Below, piece by piece: positions 1 through 20,723 of a stretch of 30,727 bases of DNA. The notes below the pieces were generated by a model. The model was not told where the DNA came from, ran no database searches, and was given only the letters and a program-made list of their open reading frames with translations. Origin of the DNA: a virus. The translations under genes and the position numbers were made by a program. The DNA lies in the UHGV virus genome UHGV-0157886; one strand, written 5' to 3'. How positions within the stretch are numbered: position 1 is the stretch's first letter; each line of letters begins with the position of its first letter.

Positions 1-838
1 TCGTGTAACCATACTGATCTTTAAGATCTGCGGTAATCTCATCGTCTATGATGCTGAATTCTAATTTCCAGTTCAGCGGCCTACGCGTACCACTGACATG
101 CCTGGAAATATGAGACAGGTAGCTTTTTTTCCCTCCGGCCAAAATGTAACGCGAGGTTATTTCTGTCACTATGCCGACTGCAGCAGGAGTAACACGATAA
201 ACAGCCCCATTAATCCTGACAAAGTTTGAAATGGTTTTTATCTCATACCCGACAGACATGTCCAAGCGAGAGCTGTCATATTTGCCATTAGCGAGATCTG
301 TAACATACATTGCGTTGTCGATGTTATCAGGCCTAACTACCCCACTATATAAGTCTTGCACATATTTTTTTGTTACAGCATCCTGAGAGTTCTTCGGATC
401 GGCCAAATTGGAAATTCTGTTTTGCTTTGCATCGTAATATTTTGCAAGCAAAGATGGTTTCATCAATGCACGTCTGAACCACCCAAAACATCGCTGGATC
501 AGCATCGTCAGGTAGTCAAATGCATCTTCATGAACTTCGGGGAAAAATTTTCCCTGATTGCGAAGATCAGTCTCCTGCACCACATCAAGCACACGCTCTA
601 TCGTGATTCGCCAGCCAGCAGCAAGCGGCGACGGAAGAACCACTGCACCGCCACTATAAGTTCCCGCCCCTGTTACTGTATAACCAGCATCCAGCACTAG
701 TTCTGTTACGTTACCGTTAAGGTCAGACACCTGAACAACCAGGTCGGATTTTTTGAAAATACGGAAGGTATACGGAAATGATGTCGTAACGCCGTTACCT
801 GTGTATTCGTTGTGGTCAACTTCGGTTGAGACCGTCAT
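1..838 (-). CDS. Tail fibre / tailspike, N-terminal part only (ORF open to the left window edge); T7 gp17-like N-terminal particle-binding domain
   Basis: ATG at 838-836 preceded by GGAG (rc of 846-849). Reading frame is open for about 279 codons to position 1; the supplied ORF track lists no minus-strand ORF here, consistent with no stop before the edge. Translation starts MTVSTEVDHNEYTGNGVTTSFPYTFRIFKKSDLVVQV and contains RISNLADPKNSQDAVTKKYVQ, which matches the pattern of the T7 gp17 N-terminal domain as I remember it. Last gene of the virion operon. Confidence 0.65.
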   Translation of the reverse strand, partial: MTVSTEVDHNEYTGNGVTTSFPYTFRIFKKSDLVVQVSDLNGNVTELVLDAGYTVTGAGTYSGGAVVLPSPLAAGWRITIERVLDVVQETDLRNQGKFFPEVHEDAFDYLTMLIQRCFGWFRRALMKPSLLAKYYDAKQNRISNLADPKNSQDAVTKKYVQDLYSGVVRPDNIDNAMYVTDLANGKYDSSRLDMSVGYEIKTISNFVRINGAVYRVTPAAVGIVTEITSRYILAGGKKSYLSHISRHVSGTRRPLNWKLEFSIIDDEITADLKDQYGYT

Positions 839-942
839 GTTAAATCTCCAGATAGTCGCAGCACCCGTTGCGCCGCATATCTGGTTATTCTATTACCTGA
901 AAAACCACATATGGATAGAAAGACTGTGAATATGAACAGATA

Positions 943-957
943 TTACCTTTCGGGTAA
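943..957. promoter_or_regulatory. Operator-like inverted repeat TTACC-N5-GGTAA (site 1), upstream of the tail fibre gene
   Basis: Perfect TTACCtttcgGGTAA with A/T flanks; an AACCACATA box lies at 903-911. Same motif recurs at the other transcription-unit heads. Confidence 0.5.
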
Positions 958-994
958 TTTGCAAAACGTGCTGGATAGCAAACAAATTATTTGA

Positions 995-1014
995 TACTGT
1001 ATAAATATACAGTT
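995..1014. promoter_or_regulatory. LexA (SOS) box overlapping a promoter
   Basis: TACTGTATAAATATACAGTT matches the E. coli LexA consensus TACTGTATATATATACAGTA at 18 of 20 positions, with CTGT-N8-ACAG intact. TTGATA at 991-996 is a possible -35. Lies 20 bp upstream of the ORF at 1034. Confidence 0.7.
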
Positions 1015-1033
1015 ATTGCATGGAGAAGATAAG

Positions 1034-1291
1034 ATGCAGCAGTATCACTATCCACTGGAAGACGGATTTACCGAAAGGATCCACACGCCGGGAGGCGTCA
1101 GGTCACTGGTGGAGGGATCGCACTTGATGAAATTACTCCGGGATCTCGATAAGGATGGATTTAATGTCGATGGCCCACTTGCCGAACTGACTGCACTGAT
1201 TAACTACGTCACCAGCTCACAGATGTCTATGCGGGATCTGCAAACACATCTCGACTATTGTGCCGAACAATTACGAAAACAAACCACATAA
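1034..1291 (+). CDS. Small soluble protein (85 aa) under the LexA box; candidate SOS-induced antirepressor
   Basis: ATG at 1034 with GGAGA 8 nt upstream (the ORF-track start at 1016 is a TTG). Plus strand, convergent with the virion operon. Acidic/charged 85-aa product, no TM segment. Function is inferred from context only. Confidence 0.5.
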   Translation: MQQYHYPLEDGFTERIHTPGGVRSLVEGSHLMKLLRDLDKDGFNVDGPLAELTALINYVTSSQMSMRDLQTHLDYCAEQLRKQTT

Positions 1292-1297
1292 AGAAAA

Positions 1298-1313
1298 GGC
1301 CGCGAAAGCGGCC
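1298..1313. terminator. GC hairpin GGCCGC-GAAA-GCGGCC between convergent genes; probable bidirectional intrinsic terminator
   Basis: Perfect 6-bp GC stem with GAAA loop. The minus-strand transcript would be followed by UUUUCUUUA (rc of 1289-1297); the plus-strand U-tract is weaker. Confidence 0.5.
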
Positions 1314-1314
1314 T

Positions 1315-1326
1315 GTGACATGTCAC
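1315..1326. repeat. Perfect 12-bp palindrome GTGACATGTCAC, copy A
   Basis: Identical 12-mer also at 18528-18539 and 20793-20804. Overlaps the stop codon of the 98-aa membrane ORF. Confidence 0.8.
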
Positions 1327-1619: not shown

Positions 1620-1631
1620 GTAGTCACCTAT

Positions 1632-1814: not shown

Positions 1815-4289
1815 TTATTGCGGAGTGACATCCTGAGGTCGCCACCAGTATGTCTGATTAAACTCTTTCTTCGAACGTTGCTCCATTTTACGCAAATAGC
1901 CTGGTGAAAAATACTCCTGCATCTGGTTAAAGATCATATGATCGAGAGCCGCCTTTAAGTACCAGAGATTCGCACCTGGCATCAAACCTTTCCCCAGCTT
2001 CACCAGATCACCACCAGTCTGCTCACTCTTCCCTTCCACAGCATTTAACGGTATGCCCTGAGCAATCTTCACTACGTCATCAACCAGACCAGCTACCGGG
2101 CCAAGCATCGACGCCAGCGCGCCGCTTCCGTACCTAGTGTGATCTGACAATAAAAAGTCACCGTAAAGGCCAAGACCACCACCTTTCAGTAGAGCACCAA
2201 GCCAAAATTTAGCAGCATCTTCTCCTGTCATCTCGCGAGGATTACGACCAGACGCAAGGTCGTTAAGTTGCTGCGACAAAGCGCCAAGAATGGTCGTACT
2301 GGCAATAAACGTCGCAATATATGCCGCACGCCCACCAGCAGACGGCATACCCATAGCGCGTGACCAGTGACGCATAACCACCGAGATAGGGAACGATTTA
2401 AACAGGAAAACACTTCTCGTTAATTCACCTTTCCATGTTCCACGCTGAATACCAGAACCGGTTATCAGTTGCTCACGTGCTCCCGGTGTAATAACAGCCA
2501 TATCAACTTCTTCAGTTACGGCACCGAGCAGTTTACGCATTGCCTCAAATTTCACGCGTTCAGGCTCACCAAGATGTTTAACTGCTGAATCAGGGATACG
2601 CATAATGCTTTCCGGTGTCAGCATCGTATTATTGCCGTTCCCCCAGTCCTCCTGTTGCGCCAGCTTCCATACGCTCCAGTCTGTGTCAGTAATCCCTTTG
2701 CTTTTCAGGATACGAAAATCAGAATTATCGAGGCTACGAAGGTCTGGTGTCCGTGACACTACTTCTCCCAGGCTTCCAATCATGGTTACGCCATAGGCGC
2801 GCTTGTGCGCATCTGACCATGCTGTAAGCCCACTGGCACGCATTACCGCCGTTGCCGCCCAACGAGACACAGACGGCCCCATATTATCCATCGCCCAGCG
2901 GTTAACGCTGCCAAGTAGAGATTCCATCGCCAGACCAGCGCGGCGCGCCCGCGCAAGTTCTGTACGGTTCGTTGGGTCCATAGCTTCAAGCTGGTTGCGG
3001 AATAACTGGTTCATTGGAAGGTTGGTAACCTTCGCAGACAGATACATGGTTCCAAGATCAGAGAACGATGACAGCAACGCGGATCCGAGTCTGCTGGCAA
3101 CCAGCCAGTTGCGGATATTGTCAGACCATCGCGCGATGTGCGGATTCGCTACAGGCTGTGTCTTTCCGGAAATAAAGTTGTACAGATTCTCTGTGTTGTT
3201 CGCCAGCCGCTCGACTTTACCGGTTTTACTCGGGTTAGCTGTTGCCGTTTCTGCCTTCACCTGATCAAGAAGAGAGCGGAAAACATGATCGGGGTTTGGG
3301 CCATATGTTTCCACCAGTGCAATATCTTTACTGATACCTTCAAGGTGACCGACCATGATTTCCCATAGAGAGCGATCGCCATAAAGTTGCTGATATTGCA
3401 GATAGGAATCTGCATCTTTGAAATGTATCTGTCGTGATGCATTACCACGGTTAGCACGTGCGCCGGAAATTCGCATTCCGGTATCAGTAAGCTTATTCAG
3501 CCCACCAGTAGCGATCGTGTTATAAGCCTCTCCAAGAAATGCAGACAACTCGGCATCGTTCATCAGTTGTCCATCGGCTCGGGTATAATATTTGCGATCC
3601 AGCTTACCTATAACATCGCTAACCCATTTATCTTTTGATACCGCCCCAACCTTTTCCATAGAATGATGTTGAGGGATCCCCCAGTTTTCGAGATAGCCAA
3701 TGTCCCCACCAGCATCATTAAACCGGCGGCGCAGCAGCTCTGTAACTTCTCTCCACGCCTTAGCACCTTTTCTTGCTTTAGCATTGCCAGTATTTTGCCC
3801 TCGCATTTCATATACCAGATCACGCACGCCAGCTTCATCTTCAAACAGGCCAAAAAAGCGAGGATCAACTGCTTCAAATGCCTCCTGCAATTGACTCAAT
3901 GCATAATCACGAGTGGCTTTTGTTCTGGACTCAACAGAGAGGAAATTCGATTTACCGTCTGCATTAAAAGCAATAGTACGGTTAAGAGCGCCAAGTTTCC
4001 CATCAGCCCCTTGATAGCTATTGATAAATTTATCCAATCTCTGACGTGCGGCTATAGTGAGGGCCACACGACGTTTCTTTAATGCCGCTTCTCGCTGTAA
4101 TTCTTCAGATGCCAATTGTGCTGCTCGATATAGCCGCTCTGATTCGGAAAGTTGTCTCCACGACATCGGGTCATCACGAGCAATGGAGCGCATATTTCGA
4201 TAAATGCGGTCTTCAATGTTCTGTATTTCTCGCGCCGTTAACGTGCGCTGCGCCGCCTGCTGAACCGCTTGTATACATTCCTGTCTCAT
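1815..4289 (-). CDS. Internal virion / ejection protein (824 aa), T7 gp15/gp16-class by position
   Basis: Large ORF in a translationally coupled chain after the tail tubular genes. GAGAGG 9 nt upstream of the ATG at 4289. No family recognised from sequence alone. Confidence 0.55.
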   Translation of the reverse strand: MRQECIQAVQQAAQRTLTAREIQNIEDRIYRNMRSIARDDPMSWRQLSESERLYRAAQLASEELQREAALKKRRVALTIAARQRLDKFINSYQGADGKLGALNRTIAFNADGKSNFLSVESRTKATRDYALSQLQEAFEAVDPRFFGLFEDEAGVRDLVYEMRGQNTGNAKARKGAKAWREVTELLRRRFNDAGGDIGYLENWGIPQHHSMEKVGAVSKDKWVSDVIGKLDRKYYTRADGQLMNDAELSAFLGEAYNTIATGGLNKLTDTGMRISGARANRGNASRQIHFKDADSYLQYQQLYGDRSLWEIMVGHLEGISKDIALVETYGPNPDHVFRSLLDQVKAETATANPSKTGKVERLANNTENLYNFISGKTQPVANPHIARWSDNIRNWLVASRLGSALLSSFSDLGTMYLSAKVTNLPMNQLFRNQLEAMDPTNRTELARARRAGLAMESLLGSVNRWAMDNMGPSVSRWAATAVMRASGLTAWSDAHKRAYGVTMIGSLGEVVSRTPDLRSLDNSDFRILKSKGITDTDWSVWKLAQQEDWGNGNNTMLTPESIMRIPDSAVKHLGEPERVKFEAMRKLLGAVTEEVDMAVITPGAREQLITGSGIQRGTWKGELTRSVFLFKSFPISVVMRHWSRAMGMPSAGGRAAYIATFIASTTILGALSQQLNDLASGRNPREMTGEDAAKFWLGALLKGGGLGLYGDFLLSDHTRYGSGALASMLGPVAGLVDDVVKIAQGIPLNAVEGKSEQTGGDLVKLGKGLMPGANLWYLKAALDHMIFNQMQEYFSPGYLRKMEQRSKKEFNQTYWWRPQDVTPQ

Positions 4290-4294
4290 TTAAT

Positions 4295-6097
4295 TTAACC
4301 TCTCAAGAAACACGCCACAGCGACATCAAACAGGCTGGAATCCTGTATTGCCTGCTCACTTTCCATGTTCGCTTCATCCAGTACTTCACGCGCACTGCGC
4401 GATTGTGGATTACCATCATCATCCAGCACGGTGATTATCATGTCAGGTGATTCAAGCAGCGAGTCTTCAGCTATGCGCAGATCAATATCTCCTGCCGGAT
4501 CTGCCATCATCTTTTGTTCTGCCTGTTGCAATATCTTACCGGGCTCAAAAGGAGCTACTTCGTCTGGCGTCCTGACCTCTGCTGTTTTATAGAATGAAAC
4601 AGCCTGAGCATTAAGTTCACTTTCTGCCTGCTGTCTCCGAGCCAGTTCTGCTCGAGCTTCAAAAAACTGACCGCCAGGCTCGTGCGGTGCCAACGCGTTA
4701 CGGGAAAATTCCAGGCGTTCTTGTGCCTGCCGGATTCGTTGGTCAATATCGCGAAGTCTGACCTGTTTATCTGATCGAGCACGAGACAAAGCTTTACCGC
4801 TGCCGGTTGGCTCTTCTGCAAGAATTTGTGCGCGCTGTTCAGTGAGATTTTCAATAATTCGTTGGCTATTAGCGATTTCAGACTGGTAAACCTGTCTATC
4901 GCCACGCGGCAAAAGCTGCGCGGCCTGTTCTTCAAGCAACCGATTTTCTATAGCGCGCGCCGTTACTCCATCATCTACAGATGACAGAGCCTCATTAACT
5001 GCCTGAGACAGCAGACTCTTACGCCCAGGAATTTCACTGAAAGATGCAGGCTCAACAATGCTGGCAACGTCTACAGGTCTCCCTTGGCTAACATCAGACA
5101 TAGCTTTTCGCAGAGCCTGAATGTGAGAATTGCGCGAAAGCACGTTGATCGGCACGCCGGGAGAAATATCAATTTCAGCATGATGAGCGGCATTCGCCGC
5201 CAGTGCAGCATCGACATCAACTGGTGAAAAATTGGGGGTGCTTGTAGCCTCACCGCGAGAGTTAATAAATCTGCCGACACCACCAAACGCCACCCCAAGA
5301 ACAGCATCAATAGCAATTGCCTGTCGATCCAACACATCATACTGGTTAGCCATTTCGCTATAGCCACCATCACGAAGCGTTTTTGCAGTAAGCCCACGCT
5401 GTGCCATACCGAACGCAATATTTGTACCTGCGGCATAGGCAATATCTGGCGTTGCACGTACTGCTGTTGCTGCGGCGCGTCGCACTGAACTTTCACCCGT
5501 CCGCGCAAGCTGAGACGCCACACCTTCCGCCAGCGCACCACCAGCACGTAACCCGAGGCTCATAGGGATCAGTGTTCCGGCACCAGCAGTAATACCCTGC
5601 ACTAATCCCGCTTCCTGCGCCGTCCTGAAATCAACACCCTGTGCTGTCAGCCGTTCAAACTCAGAAAAACCCTGTAGCGAAGTTACCGCCGCAGCACCTC
5701 CGACCGGACCACCGAGCGTTGTACCGATAACAGCCTGCCCGCCCATATCGAACAACCCATAAAGAACCTGCCCGGCGGTTCCGGTTGTCGCGGCATCAGG
5801 CGTCAGCCGCTTAACCTGCTGCTCTGCTAGTTTTCTCTGCTCGGCAATGTATGAAACTGAAGTGTCATTGAGCGAGGTGTTTTCGTTAACAAACTGAGCA
5901 ATCGGGGATACGATTTTATCCATCCCTGCCCAGAGCAACTGATCTGGCTTTGCCACCAGCCCGGAGTACAAACCAGACAATGCCGCTCCTACAGCATTGT
6001 CGAAAAAGCCAACATCGCTGTTAAAGCCAACTGGATTTGATGCTGCTTCGTCAAGCTGCTGATTCTGGTTTACTGGATTAAGGCCAAAGTAACTCAT
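4295..6097 (-). CDS. Internal virion / ejection protein (600 aa) with Gly/Ala-rich hydrophobic N-terminal half and coiled-coil C-terminal half
   Basis: Start ATG overlaps the upstream stop (ATGA at 6094-6097). Gly/Ala-rich segments typical of membrane-inserting ejection proteins. Confidence 0.55.
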   Translation of the reverse strand: MSYFGLNPVNQNQQLDEAASNPVGFNSDVGFFDNAVGAALSGLYSGLVAKPDQLLWAGMDKIVSPIAQFVNENTSLNDTSVSYIAEQRKLAEQQVKRLTPDAATTGTAGQVLYGLFDMGGQAVIGTTLGGPVGGAAAVTSLQGFSEFERLTAQGVDFRTAQEAGLVQGITAGAGTLIPMSLGLRAGGALAEGVASQLARTGESSVRRAAATAVRATPDIAYAAGTNIAFGMAQRGLTAKTLRDGGYSEMANQYDVLDRQAIAIDAVLGVAFGGVGRFINSRGEATSTPNFSPVDVDAALAANAAHHAEIDISPGVPINVLSRNSHIQALRKAMSDVSQGRPVDVASIVEPASFSEIPGRKSLLSQAVNEALSSVDDGVTARAIENRLLEEQAAQLLPRGDRQVYQSEIANSQRIIENLTEQRAQILAEEPTGSGKALSRARSDKQVRLRDIDQRIRQAQERLEFSRNALAPHEPGGQFFEARAELARRQQAESELNAQAVSFYKTAEVRTPDEVAPFEPGKILQQAEQKMMADPAGDIDLRIAEDSLLESPDMIITVLDDDGNPQSRSAREVLDEANMESEQAIQDSSLFDVAVACFLRG

Positions 6098-13021: not shown

Positions 13022-13024
13022 TCC

Positions 13025-13047
13025 TGCAATAAAGGGGCCGAAGCCCC
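13025..13047 (-). terminator. Intra-operon hairpin GGGGC-CGAA-GCCCC followed by a U-tract on the minus transcript; probable attenuator
   Basis: Stem 13034-13038 / 13043-13047; minus strand continues UUUAUUGCA. Lies downstream of the capsid-proximal genes, as often seen after highly expressed capsid genes. Confidence 0.4.
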
Positions 13048-13065
13048 TTGTCTGATCCGCGAGGC

Positions 13066-13410: not shown

Positions 13411-13411
13411 C

Positions 13412-13849
13412 TTAACCAGTTACTTTTGAACGGATCGGATACGGCGTATTGGCATCAACATCAAGACTGATACCCGCAGTGAATTCGCCAGCCGTTAGTG
13501 GGCCAGTTGCGACGGAGTAGTTAACACGCAGATATCGCTGAACACCGGCAGGCACCTTTGCAGAAACAACTCGTTTACCTGCTGTCAGGGCGGTCTTTGC
13601 CAGTGCACCACTATCATAAATAGTGGTCCATGAGCTGTTATTCTCACTCGTCTGCAACTGGATGTTTACAGTTGCCTCACCACTTGCCGTGGCGGCTTCG
13701 TTAACCAGCACCCAAAACTCAAGCGGGTAACCCACGCCGATATCACGACGTTTTCCGTCAATTGGACCGAGATCGATTACGTCAGTAGAAGCCGCGGTAT
13801 TCGTAACCGCCTGAGCTTCGGAGAACATCAACAGTTTGTCGGTGATCAT
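13412..13849 (-). CDS. Virion protein (145 aa), Thr/Ala/Val-rich; possible capsid decoration protein
   Basis: GGAG 7 nt upstream of the ATG at 13849. Immediately downstream of the major capsid gene. Composition suggests beta-rich fold. Function inferred from position only. Confidence 0.4.
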   Translation of the reverse strand: MITDKLLMFSEAQAVTNTAASTDVIDLGPIDGKRRDIGVGYPLEFWVLVNEAATASGEATVNIQLQTSENNSSWTTIYDSGALAKTALTAGKRVVSAKVPAGVQRYLRVNYSVATGPLTAGEFTAGISLDVDANTPYPIRSKVTG

Positions 13850-13900
13850 CTTCTTTCTCCATTAGTGGGTCTGTTACGACCCACAGGTTAATAACAGGCG

Positions 13901-14893
13901 TTACACCACGCGGGCTTCTGTTTCCAGAAGCGCATCAGTTTCACGGATTGGTACACCACGGAATGAAGTCCACCACTCGCCTTCAGTCTCTTTTACGCTG
14001 ATAGCCAGAGATGTTTTCTCCAGAGACTGCAGATCAAGAGCCTGGCCTACAGTGCGGTTCATGTAGAACACCGGGCGGCCCATGCCACGGTTTGGAATGC
14101 GATGTAGTGCTTTAACCATCAACTTCGCAATATTTGCGGCAGAGGAAGGTTCTGAAAGATTGCTGACATCGATATTTGCAATGCGAACAACATAACGCCA
14201 GTCACGCAGAGCAAGTCCGTTGTCCCATTTGTAATGGGTGCGATAGCCTTCGTACTTGCCGCCATTAGCATCTTCCAGTGTCACCTGGCCTTTATCTTCC
14301 ATCTGGATGCCAGCCTTCTGCCCTTTCGGGAAGATGCCATGCACGGTGTTTTCGCCCCACACCACTAACCAGATTGAGGTGTTATCTGTACCCGTGCCAC
14401 CAGCATCAATGATGTTCTGAGCATTACCCGCAGACAGGCTGGAATAGCGGGAGGACAGTCCCATAAACTGCTGAGGGTTAACGCTGGAATCACCATAAAA
14501 CAGCGTCTGCGCCATCTGCTGATTCATCGCTTCAATAAATGCGCGGTCTTCAGACAGGCGGAATTCGGCGGTATTGCCGTTCAGATCAGCCAGTGACTTA
14601 TCGACTTCAGCATAGGTTTCCAGCATGCCCACGTAATCGGTTACCTGCACTGTGGTTGATTTGCTTGGCTGTACGCCATAGTTCAGCAAACGCCAGGTAG
14701 CTGAAGGTAAACCAGAACGAATGGTGGTTCGGTGTCCGGTAGGAAGGTTCCCTTCGACAAAAGGCATATCCTGAAGGATCGGGTTAGTTTGACCGAGAAG
14801 CTCGATAATCTTATCGACTTTCCCGTTTGGATCGACGCGCTTACCCCAGTCAGCCAGCGTTAGCGCAGTTAAGCCTTTAACAGACATTGTCAT
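13901..14893 (-). CDS. Major capsid protein (330 aa)
   Basis: Follows the scaffold gene in the canonical portal-scaffold-capsid order. Size typical of HK97-fold podovirus capsid proteins. Confidence 0.65.
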   Translation of the reverse strand: MTMSVKGLTALTLADWGKRVDPNGKVDKIIELLGQTNPILQDMPFVEGNLPTGHRTTIRSGLPSATWRLLNYGVQPSKSTTVQVTDYVGMLETYAEVDKSLADLNGNTAEFRLSEDRAFIEAMNQQMAQTLFYGDSSVNPQQFMGLSSRYSSLSAGNAQNIIDAGGTGTDNTSIWLVVWGENTVHGIFPKGQKAGIQMEDKGQVTLEDANGGKYEGYRTHYKWDNGLALRDWRYVVRIANIDVSNLSEPSSAANIAKLMVKALHRIPNRGMGRPVFYMNRTVGQALDLQSLEKTSLAISVKETEGEWWTSFRGVPIRETDALLETEARVV

Positions 14894-14901
14894 TTCCTCT
14901 C

Positions 14902-15597
14902 TTATTTGCCATAGAGCACTTCGGCCGCACTACGCTGGCCTTCATTACCACCGGTGACCATGCCATCTTCAGACATCGCCTTTCCGATTTTCACGAACGT
15001 TTTGACCAGATCAGGGTGATTACCCAGCCCGGTGGTGTTCAGATATTCTTTGAGTTCAGGTGTCCCGAACTGGTCAAGCGCACGCTGTGCGGCGCTAAGG
15101 TTAGAAATCAACTTGTCGCCACCGATTTCTTTGTCAGCTTTTACATCCGCAGCCCACTGCTCGGTTGTTTTCTGCCAGGCTTCTGCCTGGCGCTGCTGAA
15201 CACCTGCCAGAATCTTCGGATAAGCATCAACCAGCTTTTGCGCTTGCTCGTTGGTCAGGTTAAGTTCTCGCGCCACCGGCTCGAATTCCTTCAACGCTTC
15301 TGTATCCAGCTCTACGCCTTCGGCAGCCTGAAACTCGTACTTCTCAGGCGCACCCTCTGGTTTATCGCCGTCCTTTTTTTCATCCTGCTTATCGTTTTCA
15401 GGCTTTTTGTCATCAGCAGGTTTATCGCCATCAGCAACAGGTTGTGGCTTATCACCTTCCTGTTGTGATGGATCACCAACTGGAGCAGGGTTATCACCTG
15501 CAGGCGCTGACGGTTCTGACGCAGCCGGAGCTGCTCCACCATCGACTGGTTGCTCATTGCAAAGACGGCGATACAGCAAACGCTCAAATAAATTCAT
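14902..15597 (-). CDS. Scaffolding protein (about 231 aa) with an acidic Pro/Asp/Lys-rich N-terminal region
   Basis: ATG at 15597 with AGGAG 5 nt upstream (the track start at 15603 is a GTG). Low-complexity acidic N-terminal half and helical C-terminal half are typical of scaffolds. Confidence 0.6.
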   Translation of the reverse strand: MNLFERLLYRRLCNEQPVDGGAAPAASEPSAPAGDNPAPVGDPSQQEGDKPQPVADGDKPADDKKPENDKQDEKKDGDKPEGAPEKYEFQAAEGVELDTEALKEFEPVARELNLTNEQAQKLVDAYPKILAGVQQRQAEAWQKTTEQWAADVKADKEIGGDKLISNLSAAQRALDQFGTPELKEYLNTTGLGNHPDLVKTFVKIGKAMSEDGMVTGGNEGQRSAAEVLYGK

Positions 15598-15599
15598 GA

Positions 15600-15896
15600 T
15601 CACTCCTGTTCACTGGCCTCTTTGGCCATCTTCAAATACTGTTCAGGGCAATGCGCCATAACGCGCTGAAACAGTTCCAGCGCCAGATTGCGTTGCCCCT
15701 CATTAAATGCCATTGCCATAGCATCCATCGGAGAGATAGCGGAAAACACCCGGCCTTTCTCCAGCACAGACCAGACAACGCGACGCCCCTGTTCACTGCT
15801 CATGACAAAGCGAATGTCATCAATTTCACGCTGTGCCATGTCACGTTGCTTACGGGCGTTTTCTTCTTTCAGTTGATCGTCTTCGTAATCTGTCAT
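15600..15896 (-). CDS. Hypothetical head-assembly protein (98 aa) between portal and scaffold
   Basis: Start overlaps the portal stop (ATGA at 15893-15896). Charged helical translation. Confidence 0.45.
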   Translation of the reverse strand: MTDYEDDQLKEENARKQRDMAQREIDDIRFVMSSEQGRRVVWSVLEKGRVFSAISPMDAMAMAFNEGQRNLALELFQRVMAHCPEQYLKMAKEASEQE

Positions 15897-17572
15897 TGTG
15901 ATTGCCCACCCTGACCACTAACTGCATTCGCCATAGCTGACAAAACACTCGGATCCGAAGTTTTAGCTTCGCTTAGCGTCTTGGCACCCTGTGCCGCCGC
16001 CATCCCCATCGCCATCATTTGTTGCTGCTGTTGCTGCTGTGCCCGTTGCTGGCGAGCCTGCTCAACCTGTTCCTGCGGAACAATGACGATTGGAGACACT
16101 CCGGACATATCAGCGAATGCATCGATCGCCTGATCAACGTTGAGTTTGTCGAGAGCTTCTGGTTTCGCTTGCGCAAGTTGACCAATGAAGTTAACCGTGG
16201 ACGCCAGACTGGACAGGCCGATAGACTTCTGCGCCTGAGCCATGACGGAAATGTATTCGACCTTCAGGGGCATGCCTTCCATCGCGTCAGGCGGTGGCGG
16301 CAGCATGTTTTTACGCACCATCATCGAGAAAGCGCGGTCAATGAGAGGATTAAGACATTCGTCGTTCAGACGCTCCAGAACCGGCCCCAACATCAGAAGC
16401 TTTTCTTCTTTCATTTCGATCACCGCTTCAACAGGCATTGAGCGGGTATTGATGTTCTGCAACATCATGAACAGATCGACGAAGTAGGCGCTGTTAATGA
16501 TTTGACGAGTGTCCTGAATGTCTGCCACCAAATCTGCTGTACTGGGGTTAACCAGATAAGCAGGCCTGAAGCCATCCTGACCAGTAATCTGATCGATATA
16601 CGTGATGTCGCCAGGAAGAAGGGAGGCACGCTGATTCTTGAGGGAAGTCGGAGCAACCATCGGCGGATTGGTGGCTTTATCAATCAACTGCGACTTGCGC
16701 TTCTGGAGAAGCTGCAATGCCTTAACAGGTCCAAGCGCCAGCATACCCGGGCATGATGATCCATAAACATCTTCGCCATTAACTTCCCAGCGCGGAGCCA
16801 TAATTGGAAACTCATCGAATCCGGACTCACGCAACAACTTGTCGTTATCGCCACCAACCTCGTAATAAACCGATTTGAATGGCTTGTTCTTGCTATCCAG
16901 CTTCGATGTATCGCGGTCAATGTTCGGGTAAACCGAATGCATCACTTCGATCCACTTCTCGTAGGTGCCGCTTTCCCACATGCTTTTTACGGATTCGCTG
17001 ACGTTATTTAGCCCGAACTCCTGAACAAGCTGACGAACAGTCATAGAGAACTTGCGAAAACAGGTGTCAACACTGCCACGAGGTGAGTTAGCCAGGTAGT
17101 AACTGCCTATCGGGAATGGCATTGTGCGAATGATGTCCTCGTCATCCTCCAGTACCGCCATTGCACCGGTGCTGTATGTGCCGAGGCTTCCGTATAACTG
17201 CGGAAGAGACTGGTAGAGATTCGACTTATTGAACATATCGTTCATGCGGTTCTGCACCGCCTCAAGCCACAACTTAACAGGGCCATAATCCATCATTTCA
17301 GGATCTGGCGTAGCCAGGCGAAACCACGGACGCGCGGGGCTTGTGATGCCTGACATCATGCCGCTGGCGAGAGTGCGCGCCGCCATAGTCCCGGTCGAAT
17401 CAATAATACGTGTATTGCGTCGATCGTTACGGTTGACCTCAGAAGTCAGAAAGCGGGAACCACGCGGGTTGATGTAATCACTCAACTCGCGCCAGTGCGG
17501 CTCGAACGACTGACGCTCGCTTTCAAGTTGTGCGAACTGTTTGTTCAATCGCTCTTTAGTTGTTTCCGCCAT
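15893..17572 (-). CDS. Portal (head-to-tail connector) protein, T7 gp8-like, 559 aa, with C-terminal poly-Gln/Ala-Met tail
   Basis: Directly downstream of the large terminase, with expected size. C-terminus QQRAQQQQQQQMMAMGMAAAQGA resembles the Q/A/M-rich C-terminus of T7 gp8 from memory. Confidence 0.7.
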   Translation of the reverse strand: MAETTKERLNKQFAQLESERQSFEPHWRELSDYINPRGSRFLTSEVNRNDRRNTRIIDSTGTMAARTLASGMMSGITSPARPWFRLATPDPEMMDYGPVKLWLEAVQNRMNDMFNKSNLYQSLPQLYGSLGTYSTGAMAVLEDDEDIIRTMPFPIGSYYLANSPRGSVDTCFRKFSMTVRQLVQEFGLNNVSESVKSMWESGTYEKWIEVMHSVYPNIDRDTSKLDSKNKPFKSVYYEVGGDNDKLLRESGFDEFPIMAPRWEVNGEDVYGSSCPGMLALGPVKALQLLQKRKSQLIDKATNPPMVAPTSLKNQRASLLPGDITYIDQITGQDGFRPAYLVNPSTADLVADIQDTRQIINSAYFVDLFMMLQNINTRSMPVEAVIEMKEEKLLMLGPVLERLNDECLNPLIDRAFSMMVRKNMLPPPPDAMEGMPLKVEYISVMAQAQKSIGLSSLASTVNFIGQLAQAKPEALDKLNVDQAIDAFADMSGVSPIVIVPQEQVEQARQQRAQQQQQQQMMAMGMAAAQGAKTLSEAKTSDPSVLSAMANAVSGQGGQSQ

Positions 17573-17586
17573 TTCAATGACTCCGG

Positions 17587-17793
17587 TTACTGACCAAGTA
17601 GCGTTTTACCGCTGGTATTAGCGGTTGATGTGTCGCCCTGAGAACCGGTAAGCAGCGTAGAACTACGACCAGCAGCAGCGCGACGGCGACGTGTTTCTTC
17701 GTCGCGGGCATCAACAACGGCGGCATCCTGCTCCTGTGGTGCTGCCTGAACTTCTGGTGTTGCAGGCACTGATGGTGAGCTACCCATGCACAT
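17587..17793 (-). CDS. Small basic Ala/Pro/Arg-rich protein (68 aa) immediately upstream of portal
   Basis: ATG at 17793 with GGAG 7 nt upstream. Preferred over the overlapping 79-aa frame in the track. Confidence 0.4.
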   Translation of the reverse strand: MCMGSSPSVPATPEVQAAPQEQDAAVVDARDEETRRRRAAAGRSSTLLTGSQGDTSTANTSGKTLLGQ

Positions 17794-17883
17794 ATCAATG
17801 ACTCCGTACGCAATTAAATTATTACCAATTTAACCACATATGATTTATTTATCGTAGATAGTTGACATTTAACGCACAAATTA

Positions 17884-17898
17884 TTACCTTTCAGGTAA
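17884..17898. promoter_or_regulatory. Operator-like inverted repeat TTACC-N5-GGTAA (site 2) in the portal / tRNA intergenic region
   Basis: Perfect TTACCtttcaGGTAA. TTGACA at 17862-17867 sits 17 bp upstream on the plus strand; AACCACATA at 17832-17840. Confidence 0.5.
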
Positions 17899-18220: not shown

Positions 18221-18297
18221 GTGGCATTAGCTCAGTTGGACAGAGCAACCGCCTTCTAAGCGGTTGGTCGCAGGTTCGAATCCTGCATGCCACGCCA
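18221..18297 (+). tRNA. tRNA-Arg, anticodon UCU (reads AGA), CCA encoded
   Basis: Manual cloverleaf: acceptor GTGGCAT / ATGCCAC, D-arm GCTCAGTTGGACAGAGC, anticodon stem ACCGC / GCGGT with loop CTTCTAA, T-arm GCAGG-TTCGAATC-CTGC, discriminator G, CCA at 18295-18297. Confidence 0.85.
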
Positions 18298-18340
18298 GAA
18301 TCACGCCTAAGGACCGTGATGCCAGAAGTTCCAGGTGCTT

Positions 18341-18382
18341 GGCGGTGATGGTTTCCCTTGAAGGACTATCACCGCCCTTTTT
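18341..18382 (+). terminator. Intrinsic terminator downstream of the tRNA
   Basis: 9-bp stem GGCGGTGAT / ATCACCGCC followed by CTTTTT. Confidence 0.65.
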
Positions 18383-18460
18383 ACAGCAGGACGCCATTGC
18401 GATGACTTCATGCTGTAAACCAGTACAGCCACGGAAGGCATAACTCATTGCTTCCAGTTC

Positions 18461-18484
18461 GCCCGGTTCGCCGGGCATTTTTTT
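18461..18484 (+). terminator. Second intrinsic terminator (GCCCGG-TTCG-CCGGGC + T8)
   Basis: Perfect 6-bp GC stem with TTCG tetraloop followed by ATTTTTTT. Confidence 0.7.
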
Positions 18485-18527
18485 AAGGTGTGAATCATGA
18501 AATACGAATTCGATGGATTTTGATGTC

Positions 18528-18539
18528 GTGACATGTCAC
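18528..18539. repeat. Perfect 12-bp palindrome GTGACATGTCAC, copy B
   Basis: Identical to copies at 1315-1326 and 20793-20804. Lies just downstream of the large terminase stop. Confidence 0.8.
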
Positions 18540-18543
18540 AAAC

Positions 18544-18570
18544 AGCCAGCCGATGAGCTGGCTTTGTTTT
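18544..18570. terminator. Hairpin AGCCAGC-CGATGA-GCTGGCT with T/A-rich flanks on both sides; possible bidirectional terminator after the large terminase gene
   Basis: 7-bp stem; TTGTTTT follows on the plus strand and GTTTG on the minus strand. Confidence 0.45.
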
Positions 18571-18613
18571 ATCCTCACCAGAGGATATCAGCAGCATTAT
18601 CCCCTCCAGAGGA

Positions 18614-20089
18614 TTAAGCATAGGGATCGTAATCTGTAATGGCCTTGCCTTGCTGGTTCTGCTGACCGGGAATTCGCAGACGCTTCGACACCGGGAAAGC
18701 AAACGTCAGCAGTAGCGCATCGCCTTTACCCGGCGAACGCCCAAGCCGCTCCTTGATATCTTCCTTCGGTTCGATAACGATTTTACCGTCCACGCGAACT
18801 TTGTACTCTGCCGCCGACAGGTCGTCCGCTGTTTCCTGGTCATCCAGCATGCCGCCCAGCCTCAGCCATGTCTTGCATGCATTGAACATCTCCCCACGCT
18901 TGTTAAGCATCTGCGGGTCAGTGGACGCACCGCCGAACGGAACAAGTTGCCATGTACGTCCCCAGCCATCACCGATTGACTTCAAACCGGTTCCGTAACC
19001 GAAGTCGATGAACACCGCGTCAGCCTGGTACTGGTCTTCAAAGTCAGCGATACGCTTCGCCATAATCAGATCGTCGGTTGTCTTGTTGCCAGTCCATAGC
19101 ACCTTACTGTGCAGCCCCTGCCGCAGGTATATCACCGCGTCATCAACGCCTGAATATGCCGGGTCAACACCGATTATCACCGGAGCATGCGCCACCTGCG
19201 CAGCGGTTACCACCCGTTTCATTGCCTCATCAGTAAGACCGGTAGGGATAAACTGCAATTCAGATGCATCAGGGAATATGCCGCGCACACGGATTTTAAC
19301 GAAGTCGCTGTCTTCCCCGTAGTCATCAACCCATTTCTGCAACTGCTGTTTGTTAGTGCCTTCCACCGTCCGGCTGTCAATCTGCGCAGTTTTCCAGCGG
19401 TGTTTATATTTGCGGAAACATTCACGGAATCGCCCGGTATTACGCGTCGGGTTTCCGAACGCCACCCAGATAATCTCAGTGTCTTCGTCCGTTAGCGCAC
19501 CTTCGGCAACTTCCCACACCAGATCCGCAATATTCGACGCTTCATCGAATACCACGATGATGCGTTTGCGCTCGTTGTGTAGTCCGGCGAATGCCTCAGT
19601 GTTGTGCTCAGACCAGGGGATTGCGTCAGCTCGCCACCGCTTGTCGTGTCCAGGGTCATTGCTGTACATCGCGGTAGCTGTACAGGTAAACCAGTCTTTC
19701 GTGATAGCAAGGTTTGACCACTTGATAATTTCCGGCCAGGTCTTCGTTCGTAGCTGGTTGTCGGTGTTGGCGGTCACCACGACCTTACAATCCTCGCAAG
19801 TGGACATGCCCCAGTTGATCAGCATTGAGATGAATGCGGATTTACCAATACCGTGACCCGAAGCACGTGCCAGCATAAGCGGCTGATAGCGCGTCTCTGG
19901 ATTCTGCAGGTGATCACGTATCTCTCGGAACGCATCAGCCTGCCACTTACGTGGGCCGGTAGCATGTGCCAGTTCAGTCCCCTCTTCCCCCCACGGGAAC
20001 GCATAGAGGGCATAGCCAAGCGGATCGTGAGTGAACCCTGCAATATCCTCGATCAACTGCTCTTCAGGAGATAACGCTGTATCTGTCAC
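18614..20089 (-). CDS. Terminase large subunit (491 aa)
   Basis: Walker-A-like ARASGHGIGKSA near the N-terminus. Size, acidic nuclease-like C-terminal half, and position immediately after the small subunit with overlapping stop/start. Confidence 0.8.
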   Translation of the reverse strand: MTDTALSPEEQLIEDIAGFTHDPLGYALYAFPWGEEGTELAHATGPRKWQADAFREIRDHLQNPETRYQPLMLARASGHGIGKSAFISMLINWGMSTCEDCKVVVTANTDNQLRTKTWPEIIKWSNLAITKDWFTCTATAMYSNDPGHDKRWRADAIPWSEHNTEAFAGLHNERKRIIVVFDEASNIADLVWEVAEGALTDEDTEIIWVAFGNPTRNTGRFRECFRKYKHRWKTAQIDSRTVEGTNKQQLQKWVDDYGEDSDFVKIRVRGIFPDASELQFIPTGLTDEAMKRVVTAAQVAHAPVIIGVDPAYSGVDDAVIYLRQGLHSKVLWTGNKTTDDLIMAKRIADFEDQYQADAVFIDFGYGTGLKSIGDGWGRTWQLVPFGGASTDPQMLNKRGEMFNACKTWLRLGGMLDDQETADDLSAAEYKVRVDGKIVIEPKEDIKERLGRSPGKGDALLLTFAFPVSKRLRIPGQQNQQGKAITDYDPYA

Positions 20090-20721: not shown

Positions 20722-20723
20722 AT

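What the first reader, a model, noticed from the sequence alone, without database searches (positions are those of the whole stretch)
1..20089. Mosaic architecture: lambdoid immunity and replication genes driving a T7-like virion module
Portal (T7 gp8-like C-terminus), tail tubular A and B (gp11/gp12-like N-termini and sizes) and the tail fibre N-terminal domain (gp17-like) indicate a T7-type short-tail particle with internal ejection proteins. The early region is lambdoid (CI/Cro, O with iterons, P, RecT/YqaJ), and there is no phage RNA polymerase gene in the window. Temperate T7-like particle modules under host-RNAP and repressor control are comparatively little studied, and the per-operon operator sites may be how this module is wired in without a T7-type RNAP.
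Basis: inference. Interest (0 to 1): 0.4.

Follow-up and report, generated by a model that had tools for sequence, protein, structure and literature searches.

The report
Known epsilon15/phiV10-type temperate podovirus prophage
The window is most of an ordinary, already described E. coli prophage of the epsilon15/phiV10 group (genus Uetakevirus), whose distantly T7-related tail is run by host RNA polymerase under a repressor and antirepressor switch.

Summary
The "mosaic" is the standard architecture of a known phage genus.

- **Identity:** window 1-25000 is about 98% identical over about 90% of its length to phages phiV10 and phiv142-3 (genus Uetakevirus, the epsilon15 group). 287 of 5426 complete E. 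coli genomes hold at least 80% of a 25-kb stretch.
- **T7 relationship of the virion module:**
  - The portal is in the T7 gp8 Pfam family.
  - One internal virion protein is in the T7 gp14 family.
  - The 201-aa adaptor has the T7 gp11 fold.
  - The nozzle shares the central domain of gp12.
  - The tail-fibre N-terminus is a borderline T7 gp17 N-domain.
  - None of these shows significant pairwise similarity to T7 proteins.
  - The head and the terminase are not of the T7 type.
- **No phage RNA polymerase** is present.
- **Early region:** its layout is lambda-like, with a lambda P homologue, an iteron-bearing initiator and YqaJ/RecT. Immunity is not of the lambda CI type. It is the SPC32H Rep/Ant system, with a LexA box in front of ant.
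- **Operators:** eight perfect TTACC-N5-GGTAA palindromes, all intergenic, precede the operons. The epsilon15 RefSeq record already annotates the same sites.

Novelty: already known. Interest is low.

The parts
1..838 (-). N-terminal 279 aa of the tail fibre/tailspike. The gene starts at 838 and runs off the left edge of the window. The first ~160 aa form the particle-binding domain, distantly related to the T7 gp17 N-domain.
   Evidence: Translation. 100% match to E. coli 'phage tail protein'. PF03906 at 23.8 bits, below the cut-off of 25.2; 16 of 19 relatives match it. Profile hit to the Carin-1 tail fibre 8ck1, E=2e-41. hhalign against T7 gp17 residues 1-160: collinear, E=0.0037.
924..1012 (.). 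Divergent control region between the tail-fibre gene and ant. It holds LexA boxes at 924-939 and 997-1012 and a Rep operator at 943-957.
   Evidence: Perfect CTGT-N8-ACAG matches. Sequence. Operator.
1034..1291 (+). Ant antirepressor, 85 aa.
   Evidence: 5D50_E 'Anti-repressor protein' of phage SPC32H, E=6e-47. A LexA box lies 22 nt upstream of the ATG.
1815..4289 (-). 824-aa virion protein, the epsilon15 gp17 homologue. By the literature this is the counterpart of T7 gp16 (internal virion protein D).
   Evidence: phrog_684, virion structural protein. phiV10p20. Hardies 2016, Table 2. No Pfam, PDB or T7 sequence hit obtained here.
4295..6097 (-). 600-aa epsilon15 gp16-like virion protein.
   Evidence: phrog_1145. 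Synteny with epsilon15 and phiV10.
6094..8682 (-). Large internal/ejection protein with a muralytic (transglycosylase) domain, the epsilon15 gp15 homologue. The true start is probably the ATG near 8607.
   Evidence: phrog_992, phrog_1044 and phrog_7182 'tail injection transglycosylase'. The epsilon15 record gives an HHpred hit to lytic transglycosylase.
8607..9152 (-). Internal virion protein B, in the T7 gp14 family.
   Evidence: PF24072 at 31.2 bits, above the cut-off of 27. T7 gp14 is in the same family. phrog_418.
9152..9616 (-). Internal virion protein A-like, in the position that gp13 holds in T7.
   Evidence: phrog_308. Synteny. Hardies 2016.
9616..12087 (-). Tail nozzle (tubular tail protein B), a distant homologue of T7 gp12.
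   Evidence: 8ck1_A 'Tail Nozzle', E=6e-218, and the LME-1 nozzle 9efk_M. hhalign against T7 gp12 351-466, E=1.4e-4. Profile hit 23sh_T 'nozzle gp13'. 18,308 cluster representatives in the family.
12087..12695 (-). Tail adaptor/gatekeeper (tubular tail protein A), with the T7 gp11 fold.
   Evidence: AF2 model, pLDDT 83.7. Foldseek hits: Carin-1 8ck1_E TM 0.84, T7 gp11 7box_M E=5e-6, KP32 TTPA 5mu4.
12692..13849 (-). Head accessory genes: an epsilon15 gp10-like decoration protein (12692-13021), a 114-aa protein (13066-13410) and a Bbp16-like cement protein (13412-13849).
   Evidence: PF21628 E=8e-52 and PF21190 E=7.5e-49. phrog_590.
13901..14893 (-). Major capsid protein of the epsilon15 gp7 type.
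   Evidence: PF20911, E=5.5e-149.
14902..15896 (-). Protease/scaffold-like protein (14902-15603) and a Bbp19-like protein (15600-15896).
   Evidence: phrog_458 'protease'. PF25181.
15893..17572 (-). Portal protein, in the T7 gp8 family.
   Evidence: PF12236, E=4e-187. 8ck0_A portal, E=1e-178. T7 gp8 is in the same Pfam family.
17587..17898 (-). epsilon15 gp3-like small gene (17587-17793) and its upstream control region, with a Rep operator at 17884-17898 and the TATGTGGTT motif at 17832-17840.
   Evidence: phrog_831.. Homologous to the annotated epsilon15 repressor site at 2931-2947.
18221..18297 (+). tRNA-Arg(UCU), in the moron region between the terminase and portal operons.
   Evidence: ARAGORN. 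Rfam RF00005, 73 bits.
18614..20089 (-). Terminase large subunit, not of the T7 gp19 type.
   Evidence: phrog_2, E=8e-53. No Pfam hit here, whereas T7 gp19 falls in PF22530. The epsilon15 record gives an HHpred hit to Sf6 gp2.
20086..20760 (-). Terminase small subunit. The real start is probably the ATG at about 20679. The region upstream of it carries Rep operators at 20682-20696 and 20700-20714 and a terminator hairpin at 20734-20751.
   Evidence: PF03592. Sequence. Terminator scan. The phiv142-3 and epsilon15 genes are annotated in the short form.
20801..21148 (-). epsilon15 gp49-like 'transcriptional regulator' and last gene of the middle operon. It is a candidate late-gene regulator.
   Evidence: phrog_536, E=1e-53. 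No Pfam, NCBIfam or PDB hit.
23762..23845 (-). Middle-operon promoter, TCGACA-16-TAAAAT, with one Rep operator in the spacer (23824-23838) and a second over the ribosome-binding site (23762-23776).
23876..25455 (-). Replication module. It comprises a lambda P-like helicase loader (23876-24676) and an initiator (24658-25455, HTH_36 plus a DnaT domain). The origin lies inside the initiator gene, as five 19-nt iterons at 25071-25200.
   Evidence: PF06992 E=1.5e-56; PF13730 and PF17948. phrog_1032. Iterons.
25822..26925 (.). Immunity region. It contains a cro-like gene (25822-26052, -), three operators at 26089-26151, the Rep repressor (26207-26791, +), a terminator at 26812-26831, and the leftward promoter with operators at 26849-26863 and 26911-26925.
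   Evidence: phrog_35. 5D50_A Repressor, E=4e-42. HTH_3 hit and no S24 domain..
27396..29327 (+). Recombination module: YqaJ-type exonuclease (27396-28295) and RecT (28305-29327). This is the epsilon15-type version.
   Evidence: PF09588 and PF03837. 80% nucleotide identity to epsilon15, with most of the module (about 27400-29300) absent from phiV10 and phiv142-3.

Best explanation
The window is about three quarters of a Uetakevirus prophage (epsilon15/phiV10 type) of E. coli.

**Virion genes.** Positions 1-20760 encode the virion on the minus strand, in this order:
1. Small and large terminase.
2. A small moron region with a tRNA-Arg.
3. A long operon, in this gene order:
   - a portal of the T7 gp8 family;
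   - a protease/scaffold protein;
   - an epsilon15-type capsid with cement proteins;
   - an adaptor with the T7 gp11 fold;
   - a nozzle related to gp12;
   - internal virion proteins A and B;
   - three large ejection proteins.
4. After a divergent antirepressor cassette, a separately transcribed tailspike. Its N-terminal domain docks on the adaptor/nozzle as T7 gp17 does.

**Control.**
- Host sigma-70 RNA polymerase transcribes everything.
- In the lysogen, a two-HTH repressor (SPC32H Rep type) binds 15-bp palindromes, TTACC-N5-GGTAA.
- These sites lie in or next to the promoter of every operon in the window. That covers the rightward and leftward early promoters, the middle operon, the terminase operon, the portal/structural operon and the tailspike gene. 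The repressor can therefore hold the structural genes silent directly.
- DNA damage removes LexA from the box in front of ant.
- Ant then takes the Rep oligomers apart, and all operons are derepressed.
- Replication uses an iteron-binding initiator and a lambda P-like helicase loader.

**Status of each step.**
- Shown here: gene identities, operator positions, the LexA box and the homologies.
- Taken from work on relatives: short-tailed particles, Rep and Ant function.
- Inferred: that the weak late promoters also need the gp49-like regulator encoded at the end of the middle operon.
For: - **Identity to known phages:** 97.8-98% nucleotide identity over 89-92% of window 1-25000 to phiv142-3, phiV10 and the O157 typing phages. 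99% identity across 2001-18000 to phiV10. Gene-for-gene synteny with phiV10, phiv142-3, epsilon15 and Tyrion. 287 of 5426 complete E. coli genomes hold at least 80% of a 25-kb stretch.
- **Protein assignments:**
- **T7 relationship:** PF12236 and PF24072 are shared with T7. The adaptor has the gp11 fold. The nozzle profile matches the central domain of gp12. The fibre N-domain is borderline. Hardies 2016 gives independent published HMM evidence.
- **Rep, Ant and LexA box:**. A review of SPC32H Rep and Ant function is in PMC9638917. Overexpression data for the repressor and antirepressor of relative ZX5, and its short tail, are in PMC9782041.
- **Operators:** 8 perfect sites against 0.02 expected, all intergenic. 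The motif and positions are the same in phiV10, phiv142-3, epsilon15 and Tyrion and absent from T7. They coincide with the 'repressor' binding features in the epsilon15 RefSeq record.
- **Promoter and operator geometry:**
Against: - The window lacks the integrase, the att sites, the lysis genes and most of the tailspike. Whether this copy is complete and inducible cannot be judged.
- No transcription data were examined, so promoter assignments are consensus matches only.
- The late regulator is unidentified: the gp49-like protein has no informative homologue.
- The T7 relationships of the adaptor and nozzle are invisible to Pfam and to pairwise search. They rest on one structural model, one weak profile match and the literature.
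- My nozzle structure model failed (pLDDT 38).
Confidence: 0.9

Rival explanations
1. This is a recent, unusual chimera in which a lambdoid early region was joined to a virion module from a T7-like (Autographiviridae) phage. This is the stronger form of the first reader's 'mosaic' reading.
For: Lambda P, Ea22, DUF551 and DUF1064 genes typical of lambdoid phages lie next to T7-family portal and gp14-like genes.
Against: - The same combination, in the same order, occurs in epsilon15, phiV10, Tyrion and phiv142-3 at 75-99% identity. It is therefore old and lineage-defining.
- There is no nucleotide similarity to T7 and no significant pairwise protein similarity between cognate proteins.
- The capsid, scaffold and terminase belong to non-T7 families.
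- Hardies 2016 dates the split of the epsilon15 and T7 tail groups as ancient.
Confidence: 0.03
2. This particular copy is a defective or cryptic Uetakevirus remnant rather than an inducible prophage.
For: - The window does not show the integrase, lysis cassette or attachment sites.
- The antirepressor cassette, the nin-like region (21-23 kb) and the recombination module differ from those of the sequenced isolates.
Against: - All structural and replication ORFs are full length, with the same sizes as in plaque-forming phages.
- Operators, iterons and the LexA box are intact.
- Identity to isolated phages is 98-99% across the virion module.
Confidence: 0.1
3. The scattered TTACC-N5-GGTAA palindromes are not repressor operators. 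They would instead be sites for another factor, such as a late activator or Cro alone.
For: No binding experiment was available for these exact sites. The late promoters beside them are weak, as expected for activator-dependent promoters.
Against: - Three copies sit in the rep-cro intergenic region and two at the leftward promoter, in the classic operator layout.
- At the middle promoter the site fills the spacer between the -35 and -10 elements.
- The epsilon15 record annotates the same sites as repressor binding sites.
- Overexpressing the identical repressor in ZX5 cut lysis-gene transcripts by 99.97-99.99%.
Confidence: 0.1

Closest known systems
Escherichia phages phiV10 and phiv142-3 (genus Uetakevirus)
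   Same: About 98% nucleotide identity over about 87-92% of the sequence compared. Same gene order and same repressor region. Same operator motif and positions.
   Different: - The tailspike differs beyond its first ~150-220 residues.
- The antirepressor cassette differs: the SPC32H-type Ant here against the Bro-N type in phiV10.
- The nin-like region at 21-23 kb differs.
- The recombination module differs: separate YqaJ and RecT here, as in epsilon15, against the phiV10 RecE-RecT fusion.
Salmonella phage epsilon15 (type phage of the group)
   Same: Syntenic virion, replication and immunity modules. Identical operator core, ATTACC-N5-GGTAAT, annotated before the terminase, gp3/portal and tailspike genes. 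The gp11 HHpred link to T7 tubular protein A is already in the record.
   Different: Only 56% of the window aligns, at about 74-81% identity. The repressor in this group has about 42% homology to that of epsilon15, per PMC9782041.
SPC32H Rep/Ant antirepression switch (PDB 5D50, 5D4Z)
   Same: Rep homologue (E=4e-42) and Ant homologue (E=6e-47). A consensus LexA box lies directly upstream of ant.
   Different: Function was not tested for this copy. A second LexA box and a Rep operator share the divergent region with the tailspike promoter.
Coliphage T7 tail and internal core (gp8, gp11, gp12, gp13-16, gp17)
   Same: - Same gene order from portal to fibre, with similar protein sizes.
- Shared Pfam families for the portal and gp14.
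- gp11 fold in the adaptor, gp12 central domain in the nozzle, gp17 N-domain in the fibre.
   Different: - No phage RNA polymerase, and a temperate lifestyle.
- The terminase lies upstream of the portal rather than downstream of the fibre.
- Different families for the capsid, scaffold and terminase, plus extra cement proteins.
- No pairwise sequence similarity.
Bordetella phage BPP-1 and phages Carin-1 and LME-1 (epsilon15 tail homology group)
   Same: Bbp16-like and Bbp19-like head proteins. The adaptor, nozzle, portal and fibre N-terminus match the solved Carin-1 structures 8ck0 and 8ck1. The adaptor and nozzle also match LME-1 9efk.
   Different: Different hosts, receptor-binding domains and early regions.
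Genome-wide repressor sites of phage P1 (C1 operators) and mycobacteriophage L5 (stoperators). This comparison is from my own knowledge and was not tested here.
   Same: One immunity repressor acts at many sites spread over the genome, including sites in front of late or structural operons.
   Different: Here the sites are symmetric 15-bp palindromes at promoters. There are about a dozen per genome, and the repressor family is unrelated.

Membership tests
Genus Uetakevirus (epsilon15-like temperate podoviruses) | High nucleotide identity to member genomes (the genus level is roughly 70% or more over the genome). | tested here: met
   97.8-98% identity over 87-92% coverage to phiV10 and phiv142-3. 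80% identity over 77% coverage to Tyrion.
Genus Uetakevirus (epsilon15-like temperate podoviruses) | Conserved gene order: terminase, portal, capsid, adaptor, nozzle, internal proteins, tailspike, then the early region. | tested here: met
   Gene-for-gene synteny with the annotated records.
Genus Uetakevirus (epsilon15-like temperate podoviruses) | Short-tailed virion, and integration through a P4-type integrase at guaA. | not testable with these tools
   The integrase and att sites lie outside the window. Morphology is known only for relatives, for example ZX5 (PMC9782041).
Autographiviridae (T7-like phages) | Phage-encoded single-subunit RNA polymerase. | tested here: not met
   No such Pfam hit on any ORF scanned. 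None is annotated in the complete relatives.
Autographiviridae (T7-like phages) | Portal in the T7 gp8 family (PF12236). | tested here: met
   E=4e-187. T7 gp8 scores E=3e-113 in the same family.
Autographiviridae (T7-like phages) | Tail tubular protein A in PF17212, or with the gp11 fold. | tested here: inconclusive
   No PF17212 hit and no hhalign match to T7 gp11. The AF2 model does match solved T7 gp11 and KP32 TTPA (E=5e-6 to 1e-4, TM 0.5-0.6). The fold is shared; sequence-family membership is not shown.
Autographiviridae (T7-like phages) | Nozzle in PF25675 (T7 gp12). | tested here: inconclusive
   No Pfam hit. A profile aligns only to the central domain, gp12 351-466, at E=1.4e-4 and probability 52%. 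Hardies 2016 reports a strong HMM-HMM match. My structure model failed.
Autographiviridae (T7-like phages) | Capsid, scaffold and terminase of the T7 families (PF21703, PF05396, PF22530). | tested here: not met
   The capsid is in PF20911. No T7-family hits were found on the scaffold/protease or the terminase.
T7 tail fibre N-terminal domain (PF03906) | A score above the Pfam gathering threshold. | tested here: inconclusive
   23.8-24.1 bits against a cut-off of 25.2, covering only profile positions 123-149. 16 of 19 close relatives match (best E=7.5e-9). hhalign against T7 gp17 1-160 is collinear at E=0.0037.
Lambdoid phages | Lambda P-type helicase loader. | tested here: met
   PF06992, E=1.5e-56.
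Lambdoid phages | Lambda O-family initiator with the origin iterons inside its gene. | tested here: inconclusive
   Five iterons lie inside the gene. The protein hits HTH_36 and the DnaT domain, with no Pfam lambda O hit reported. Only its N-terminal half matches PHROGs labelled 'O-like'.
Lambdoid phages | CI repressor with a RecA-stimulated S24 autocleavage domain. | tested here: not met
   Only HTH domains were found, with no Peptidase_S24. The homologue is SPC32H Rep.
Lambdoid phages | N-type and Q-type antiterminators. | tested here: not met
   No antiterminator family hit on any early or middle ORF. Very small or novel proteins cannot be excluded.
SPC32H-type Rep/Ant antirepression system | Rep homologue, Ant homologue, and a LexA operator controlling ant. 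| tested here: met
   Rep E=4e-42. Ant E=6e-47. A perfect LexA box at 997-1012, 22 nt before the ant ATG. Binding and induction were not tested.

The most novel reading that the evidence does not exclude
Uetakeviruses may carry an undescribed late-transcription control layer on top of the known Rep operators. Two conserved elements suggest it.
- A leader motif, TATGTGGTT, lies 31-43 nt downstream of the operator before the middle operon, the portal/structural operon and the tailspike gene. In epsilon15 it also precedes the lysis cassette.
- A perfect 12-bp palindrome, GTGACATGTCAC, is paired with an intrinsic terminator at the end of each of three transcription units.

The orphan gp49-like regulator, encoded just before the terminase terminator, could act on these elements, for example as a processive antiterminator. 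None of the records I read annotates either element, and the palindrome does not occur in the searchable literature.
Probability: 0.2. Interest if true: 0.4.

Novelty: already known. Interest (0 to 1): 0.1.

Why it matters
It matters little as a discovery.

- The phage group, its short-tailed particle, its distant T7-type tail and ejection proteins, its Rep/Ant switch and its per-operon repressor sites are all on record.
- The useful outcome is a clean annotation of this prophage and a correction of the immunity type. Induction should run through the LexA-controlled antirepressor, not through CI autocleavage.
- The only open point is how the late operons are switched on. That makes the two unannotated conserved motifs and the gp49-like regulator a small, testable lead.

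Tried and rejected
- **Direct comparison with T7 proteins** (BLASTP and phmmer, all against all): nothing convincing.
- **hhalign of a shallow adaptor family profile against T7 gp11:** no match. The link appeared only through a structure model.
- **AlphaFold2 model of the nozzle from a shallow alignment:** pLDDT 38, unusable, so no fold search was run on it. I used a profile built from 25 diverse representatives instead.
- **The 824-aa ORF at 1815-4289 as the tail fibre:** rejected. It is the epsilon15 gp17 / internal-protein-D homologue, and the fibre gene starts at 838.
- **The gp49-like regulator:** no Pfam, NCBIfam or PDB match.
- **GTGACATGTCAC as a CRP site:** rejected, because the half-site spacing is wrong (my own knowledge of the consensus).
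- **The TATGTGGTT ATG as the start of a leaderless mRNA:** considered and dropped, because there is no conserved -10 element at the right distance.
- **Primary papers:** the epsilon15 genome paper (PMC2698709), the SPC32H papers (PNAS, PMC4983836; J Virol) and the epsilon15 tailspike preprint were not held. A search for the PDB codes 8CK0 and 8CK1 found nothing.

Full report
**What the window is**

- A megablast of window 1-25000 against 50,697 phage records gave nine records covering at least 80% of the query. The best were Escherichia phages phiv142-3, phiV10, O157 typing phages 9 and 10, HEMP4, PAS61 and ZX5, at 97-98% identity over 88-92% of the query.
- Weaker matches (75-81%) were to Enterobacter phage Tyrion and Salmonella phage epsilon15. 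The annotated records I opened (phiV10, phiv142-3, epsilon15, Tyrion) are classified in the genus Uetakevirus, and the ZX5 paper places the other E. coli phages there.
- A 1-kb-bin comparison shows 99% identity to phiV10 across 2001-18000 and 97% across the replication and immunity region.
- The same comparison shows four local replacements: the left 2 kb, the 21-23 kb region, and most of the recombination module (about 27.4-29.3 kb). That module is instead 80% identical to the one in epsilon15.
- No nucleotide similarity to T7 was found.
- 287 of 5426 complete E. coli genomes carry at least 80% of window 5728-30727. This is a common prophage type.

**Gene content**

The ORF list and the Pfam, PHROG and PDB searches give the map in the parts table.

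Virion genes (minus strand, right to left):
- TerS (PF03592) and TerL.
- A moron region with tRNA-Arg(UCU).
- A gp3-like gene and the portal (PF12236, E=4e-187).
- A Bbp19-like protein and a protease/scaffold protein (phrog_458).
- The epsilon15-type capsid (PF20911, E=5.5e-149).
- A Bbp16-like cement protein, a 114-aa protein (phrog_590) and a gp10-like decoration protein.
- The adaptor (201 aa) and the nozzle (823 aa).
- Internal virion protein A-like (154 aa) and internal virion protein B (PF24072, the T7_gp14 family).
- A muralytic protein of about 840 aa, a 600-aa protein and an 824-aa protein.
- Two small membrane proteins.

Next comes a plus-strand antirepressor gene. At the left edge is the first 279 aa of the tail fibre/tailspike, whose gene starts at 838 and runs out of the window.

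Early genes:
- A middle operon with DUF1064, Ea22-like and DUF551 genes, ending in an epsilon15 gp49-like 'transcriptional regulator'.
- A lambda P homologue (PF06992).
- An initiator (HTH_36 plus a DnaT domain) with five 19-nt iterons at 25071-25200.
- A cro-like gene, and divergent from it a 194-aa repressor.
- A leftward operon with YqaJ, RecT, AlpA-like, PerC-like and MT-A70 genes.

**How T7-like is the virion module?**

I fetched T7 itself and tested each claim.

- **Pairwise search.** BLASTP and phmmer of all 18 window virion proteins against 15 T7 proteins found nothing convincing.
- **Pfam families.** T7 gp8 and the window portal share PF12236. T7 gp14 and the 181-aa protein share PF24072. 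T7 gp11 (PF17212), gp12 (PF25675), gp9, gp10 and gp19 fall in families that the window proteins do not hit.
- **Adaptor.**
  - An AlphaFold2 model from 20 homologues (pLDDT 83.7) matched solved adaptors.
  - Carin-1 8ck1_E gave TM 0.84 and LME-1 9efk gave E=1.5e-8.
  - T7 gp11 (7box, 7ey7, 6r21) gave E=5e-6 to 2.5e-4, TM about 0.55-0.6.
  - KP32 tail tubular protein A and several other T7-group podoviruses also matched.
- **Nozzle.**
  - It matches Carin-1 'Tail Nozzle' at E=6e-218 and the LME-1 nozzle.
  - The family is very large, with 18,308 representatives at the 50%-identity cluster level.
  - A 25-member profile aligned to T7 gp12 residues 351-466 (E=1.4e-4, probability 52%).
  - It also aligned to another solved 'nozzle gp13' over the same stretch.
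  - This is the central domain that Hardies et al. 2016 reported as conserved.
- **Tail fibre.**
  - The N-terminus scores just under the PF03906 threshold.
  - 16 of 19 relatives match the family.
  - The alignment to T7 gp17 1-160 is collinear (E=0.0037).
- **Published evidence.** Hardies et al. 2016 (PMC4819975) had already shown three things by HMM-HMM comparison.
  - epsilon15 gp12 is a tubular tail B homologue, strongly matching the T7 group.
  - epsilon15 has standard internal virion protein A and B homologues in syntenic position.
  - epsilon15 gp17 (the 824-aa protein here) is the counterpart of T7 gp16.
  - They concluded that the T7-like ejection mechanism is ancestral to most podoviruses.

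So the tail and ejection apparatus is T7-related at the level of ancient homology and gene order. The head, its cement proteins, the protease and the terminase are not.

**No phage RNA polymerase**

- None of the ORFs scanned hits an RNA polymerase family.
- The complete genomes of the relatives annotate none.

**Immunity is not of the lambda CI type**

- The repressor has two HTH regions and no S24 peptidase domain.
- It is homologous over its full length to the Rep repressor of Salmonella podovirus SPC32H (5D50_A, E=4e-42).
- The 85-aa ORF at 1034-1291, inside the 'virion' region, is the SPC32H Ant antirepressor (5D50_E, E=6e-47).
- A consensus LexA box (CTGTATAAATATACAG, 997-1012) lies 22 nt upstream of its ATG. 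A second box lies at 924-939.
- According to the summary in PMC9638917, Rep binds DNA as a tetramer, and tetrameric Ant binds two Rep dimers and breaks the tetramer.
- ZX5, whose paper reports the same repressor sequence as phiV10 and phiv142-3, is short-tailed and integrates at guaA (PMC9782041). Overexpressing its repressor abolished free phage and cut lysis-gene transcripts by more than 99.9%. Overexpressing its antirepressor favoured the lytic cycle.

**Operators**

- The rep-cro intergenic region holds three copies of a 15-bp palindrome, TTACC-N5-GGTAA.
- Across the window there are eight perfect copies against 0.02 expected, and several one-mismatch copies.
- All eight lie in the 8% of the window that is intergenic.
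- Their positions:
  - the rightward promoter (26089-26151);
  - the leftward promoter (26849 and 26911, flanking a TTGACA-17-AATCAT promoter);
  - just after the cro terminator (25752);
  - the middle promoter (23824 in the spacer between -35 and -10, and 23762 over the ribosome-binding site);
  - immediately before the likely TerS start (20700 and 20682);
  - before the gp3/portal operon (17884);
  - between ant and the tailspike gene (943).
- phiV10, phiv142-3, epsilon15 and Tyrion have the same motif at the same places. In phiV10, epsilon15 and Tyrion it also lies before the lysis cassette and the integrase. The T7 region has none.
- The epsilon15 RefSeq record already carries 'protein_bind: repressor' features on exactly these sequences, before the terminase, gp3 and the tailspike.

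**Mechanism**

- *Shown here:* the gene identities, the operator layout, the LexA box and the iterons.
- *Taken from relatives:* podovirus morphology, and the functions of Rep and Ant.
- *Inferred:* Rep occupies promoter-embedded operators at every operon, so it silences the structural genes directly. SOS induction releases Ant, which strips Rep from the DNA.
- *Also inferred:* the hexamers flanking the late operators are poor matches to the sigma-70 consensus. Full late expression therefore probably needs a further factor. The gp49-like regulator, the last gene of the Rep-controlled middle operon, is the obvious candidate, but it has no informative homologue.

**Side observations**

Two further conserved DNA elements turned up.
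- TATGTGGTT occurs four times, all on the transcribed strand, against 0.22 expected. Three copies lie 31-43 nt downstream of the operator before the middle operon, the portal operon and the tailspike gene. The fourth, at 1282-1290, follows a terminator instead. The positions are conserved in the relatives.
- The perfect palindrome GTGACATGTCAC occurs three times against 0.00 expected. Each copy lies next to an intrinsic-terminator hairpin at the end of a transcription unit. It is found at all three corresponding places in epsilon15 and phiv142-3 (one copy there has a mismatch) and at two of them in phiV10 and Tyrion.
- Neither element is annotated in the records I read. The palindrome was not found in the searchable literature.

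**Verdict**

- It is wrong about the immunity type and about this being a little-studied mosaic.
- This is a known phage genus with solved structures and a characterised lysogeny switch.
- Novelty: already known. Interest: low.

Noticed in passing
window 903-911, 1282-1290, 17832-17840, 23782-23790 (all - strand): The 9-mer TATGTGGTT occurs four times against 0.22 expected. Three copies lie 31-43 nt downstream of the Rep operator, in the leaders of the tailspike gene, the portal operon and the middle operon. The fourth follows a terminator. The positions are conserved in phiV10, phiv142-3, epsilon15 (there also before the lysis cassette) and Tyrion. It is not annotated in any record I read, and its function is unknown.
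   Followed up: partly
window 1315-1326, 18528-18539, 20793-20804: The perfect 12-bp palindrome GTGACATGTCAC occurs three times against 0.00 expected. Each copy is adjacent to an intrinsic-terminator hairpin at the end of a transcription unit: after the structural operon, after TerL, and after the gp49-like regulator gene. epsilon15 and phiv142-3 have it at the same three places (one phiv142-3 copy has a mismatch); phiV10 and Tyrion have it at two. It is unannotated and absent from the searchable literature.
   Followed up: partly
window 924-957: A second LexA box (924-939) abuts the Rep operator (943-957), directly upstream of the tailspike leader. The tailspike promoter region may therefore be under both LexA and Rep control. 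phiV10 lacks this box and phiv142-3 has it with one mismatch.
   Followed up: partly
window 18221-18297 (+): ARAGORN and Rfam (73 bits) call tRNA-Arg(UCU) on the plus strand, opposite to the structural genes. The phiv142-3 record annotates the same tRNA on the other strand and 8 nt shorter.
   Followed up: partly
window 20679-20760: The long TerS ORF (TTG at 20760, as annotated in phiV10) contains a terminator hairpin and two Rep operators. The short form, starting at the ATG near 20679 as annotated in phiv142-3 and epsilon15, is more likely. If so, the phiV10 annotation is about 27 codons too long.
   Followed up: partly
window 27396-29327 (+): The recombination module (separate YqaJ exonuclease and RecT) is the epsilon15 version, at 80% identity. 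Most of it (about 27.4-29.3 kb) is missing from phiV10 and phiv142-3, which carry a RecE/RecT arrangement. This is a within-genus module swap.
   Followed up: yes
window 29735-30034 (+) and 30027-30677 (+): The leftward early operon encodes a PerC-family transcriptional activator homologue and an MT-A70 DNA methyltransferase. In pathogenic E. coli, PerC/Pch-type prophage proteins are known (my own knowledge) to activate LEE virulence genes. This was not examined further.
   Followed up: no
window 1323-1619 and 1632-1805 (-): Two small hydrophobic proteins (98 and 57 aa) lie at the end of the structural operon, just before its terminator. One has a faint holin-family hit (E=0.027). Their function is unknown.
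   Followed up: no
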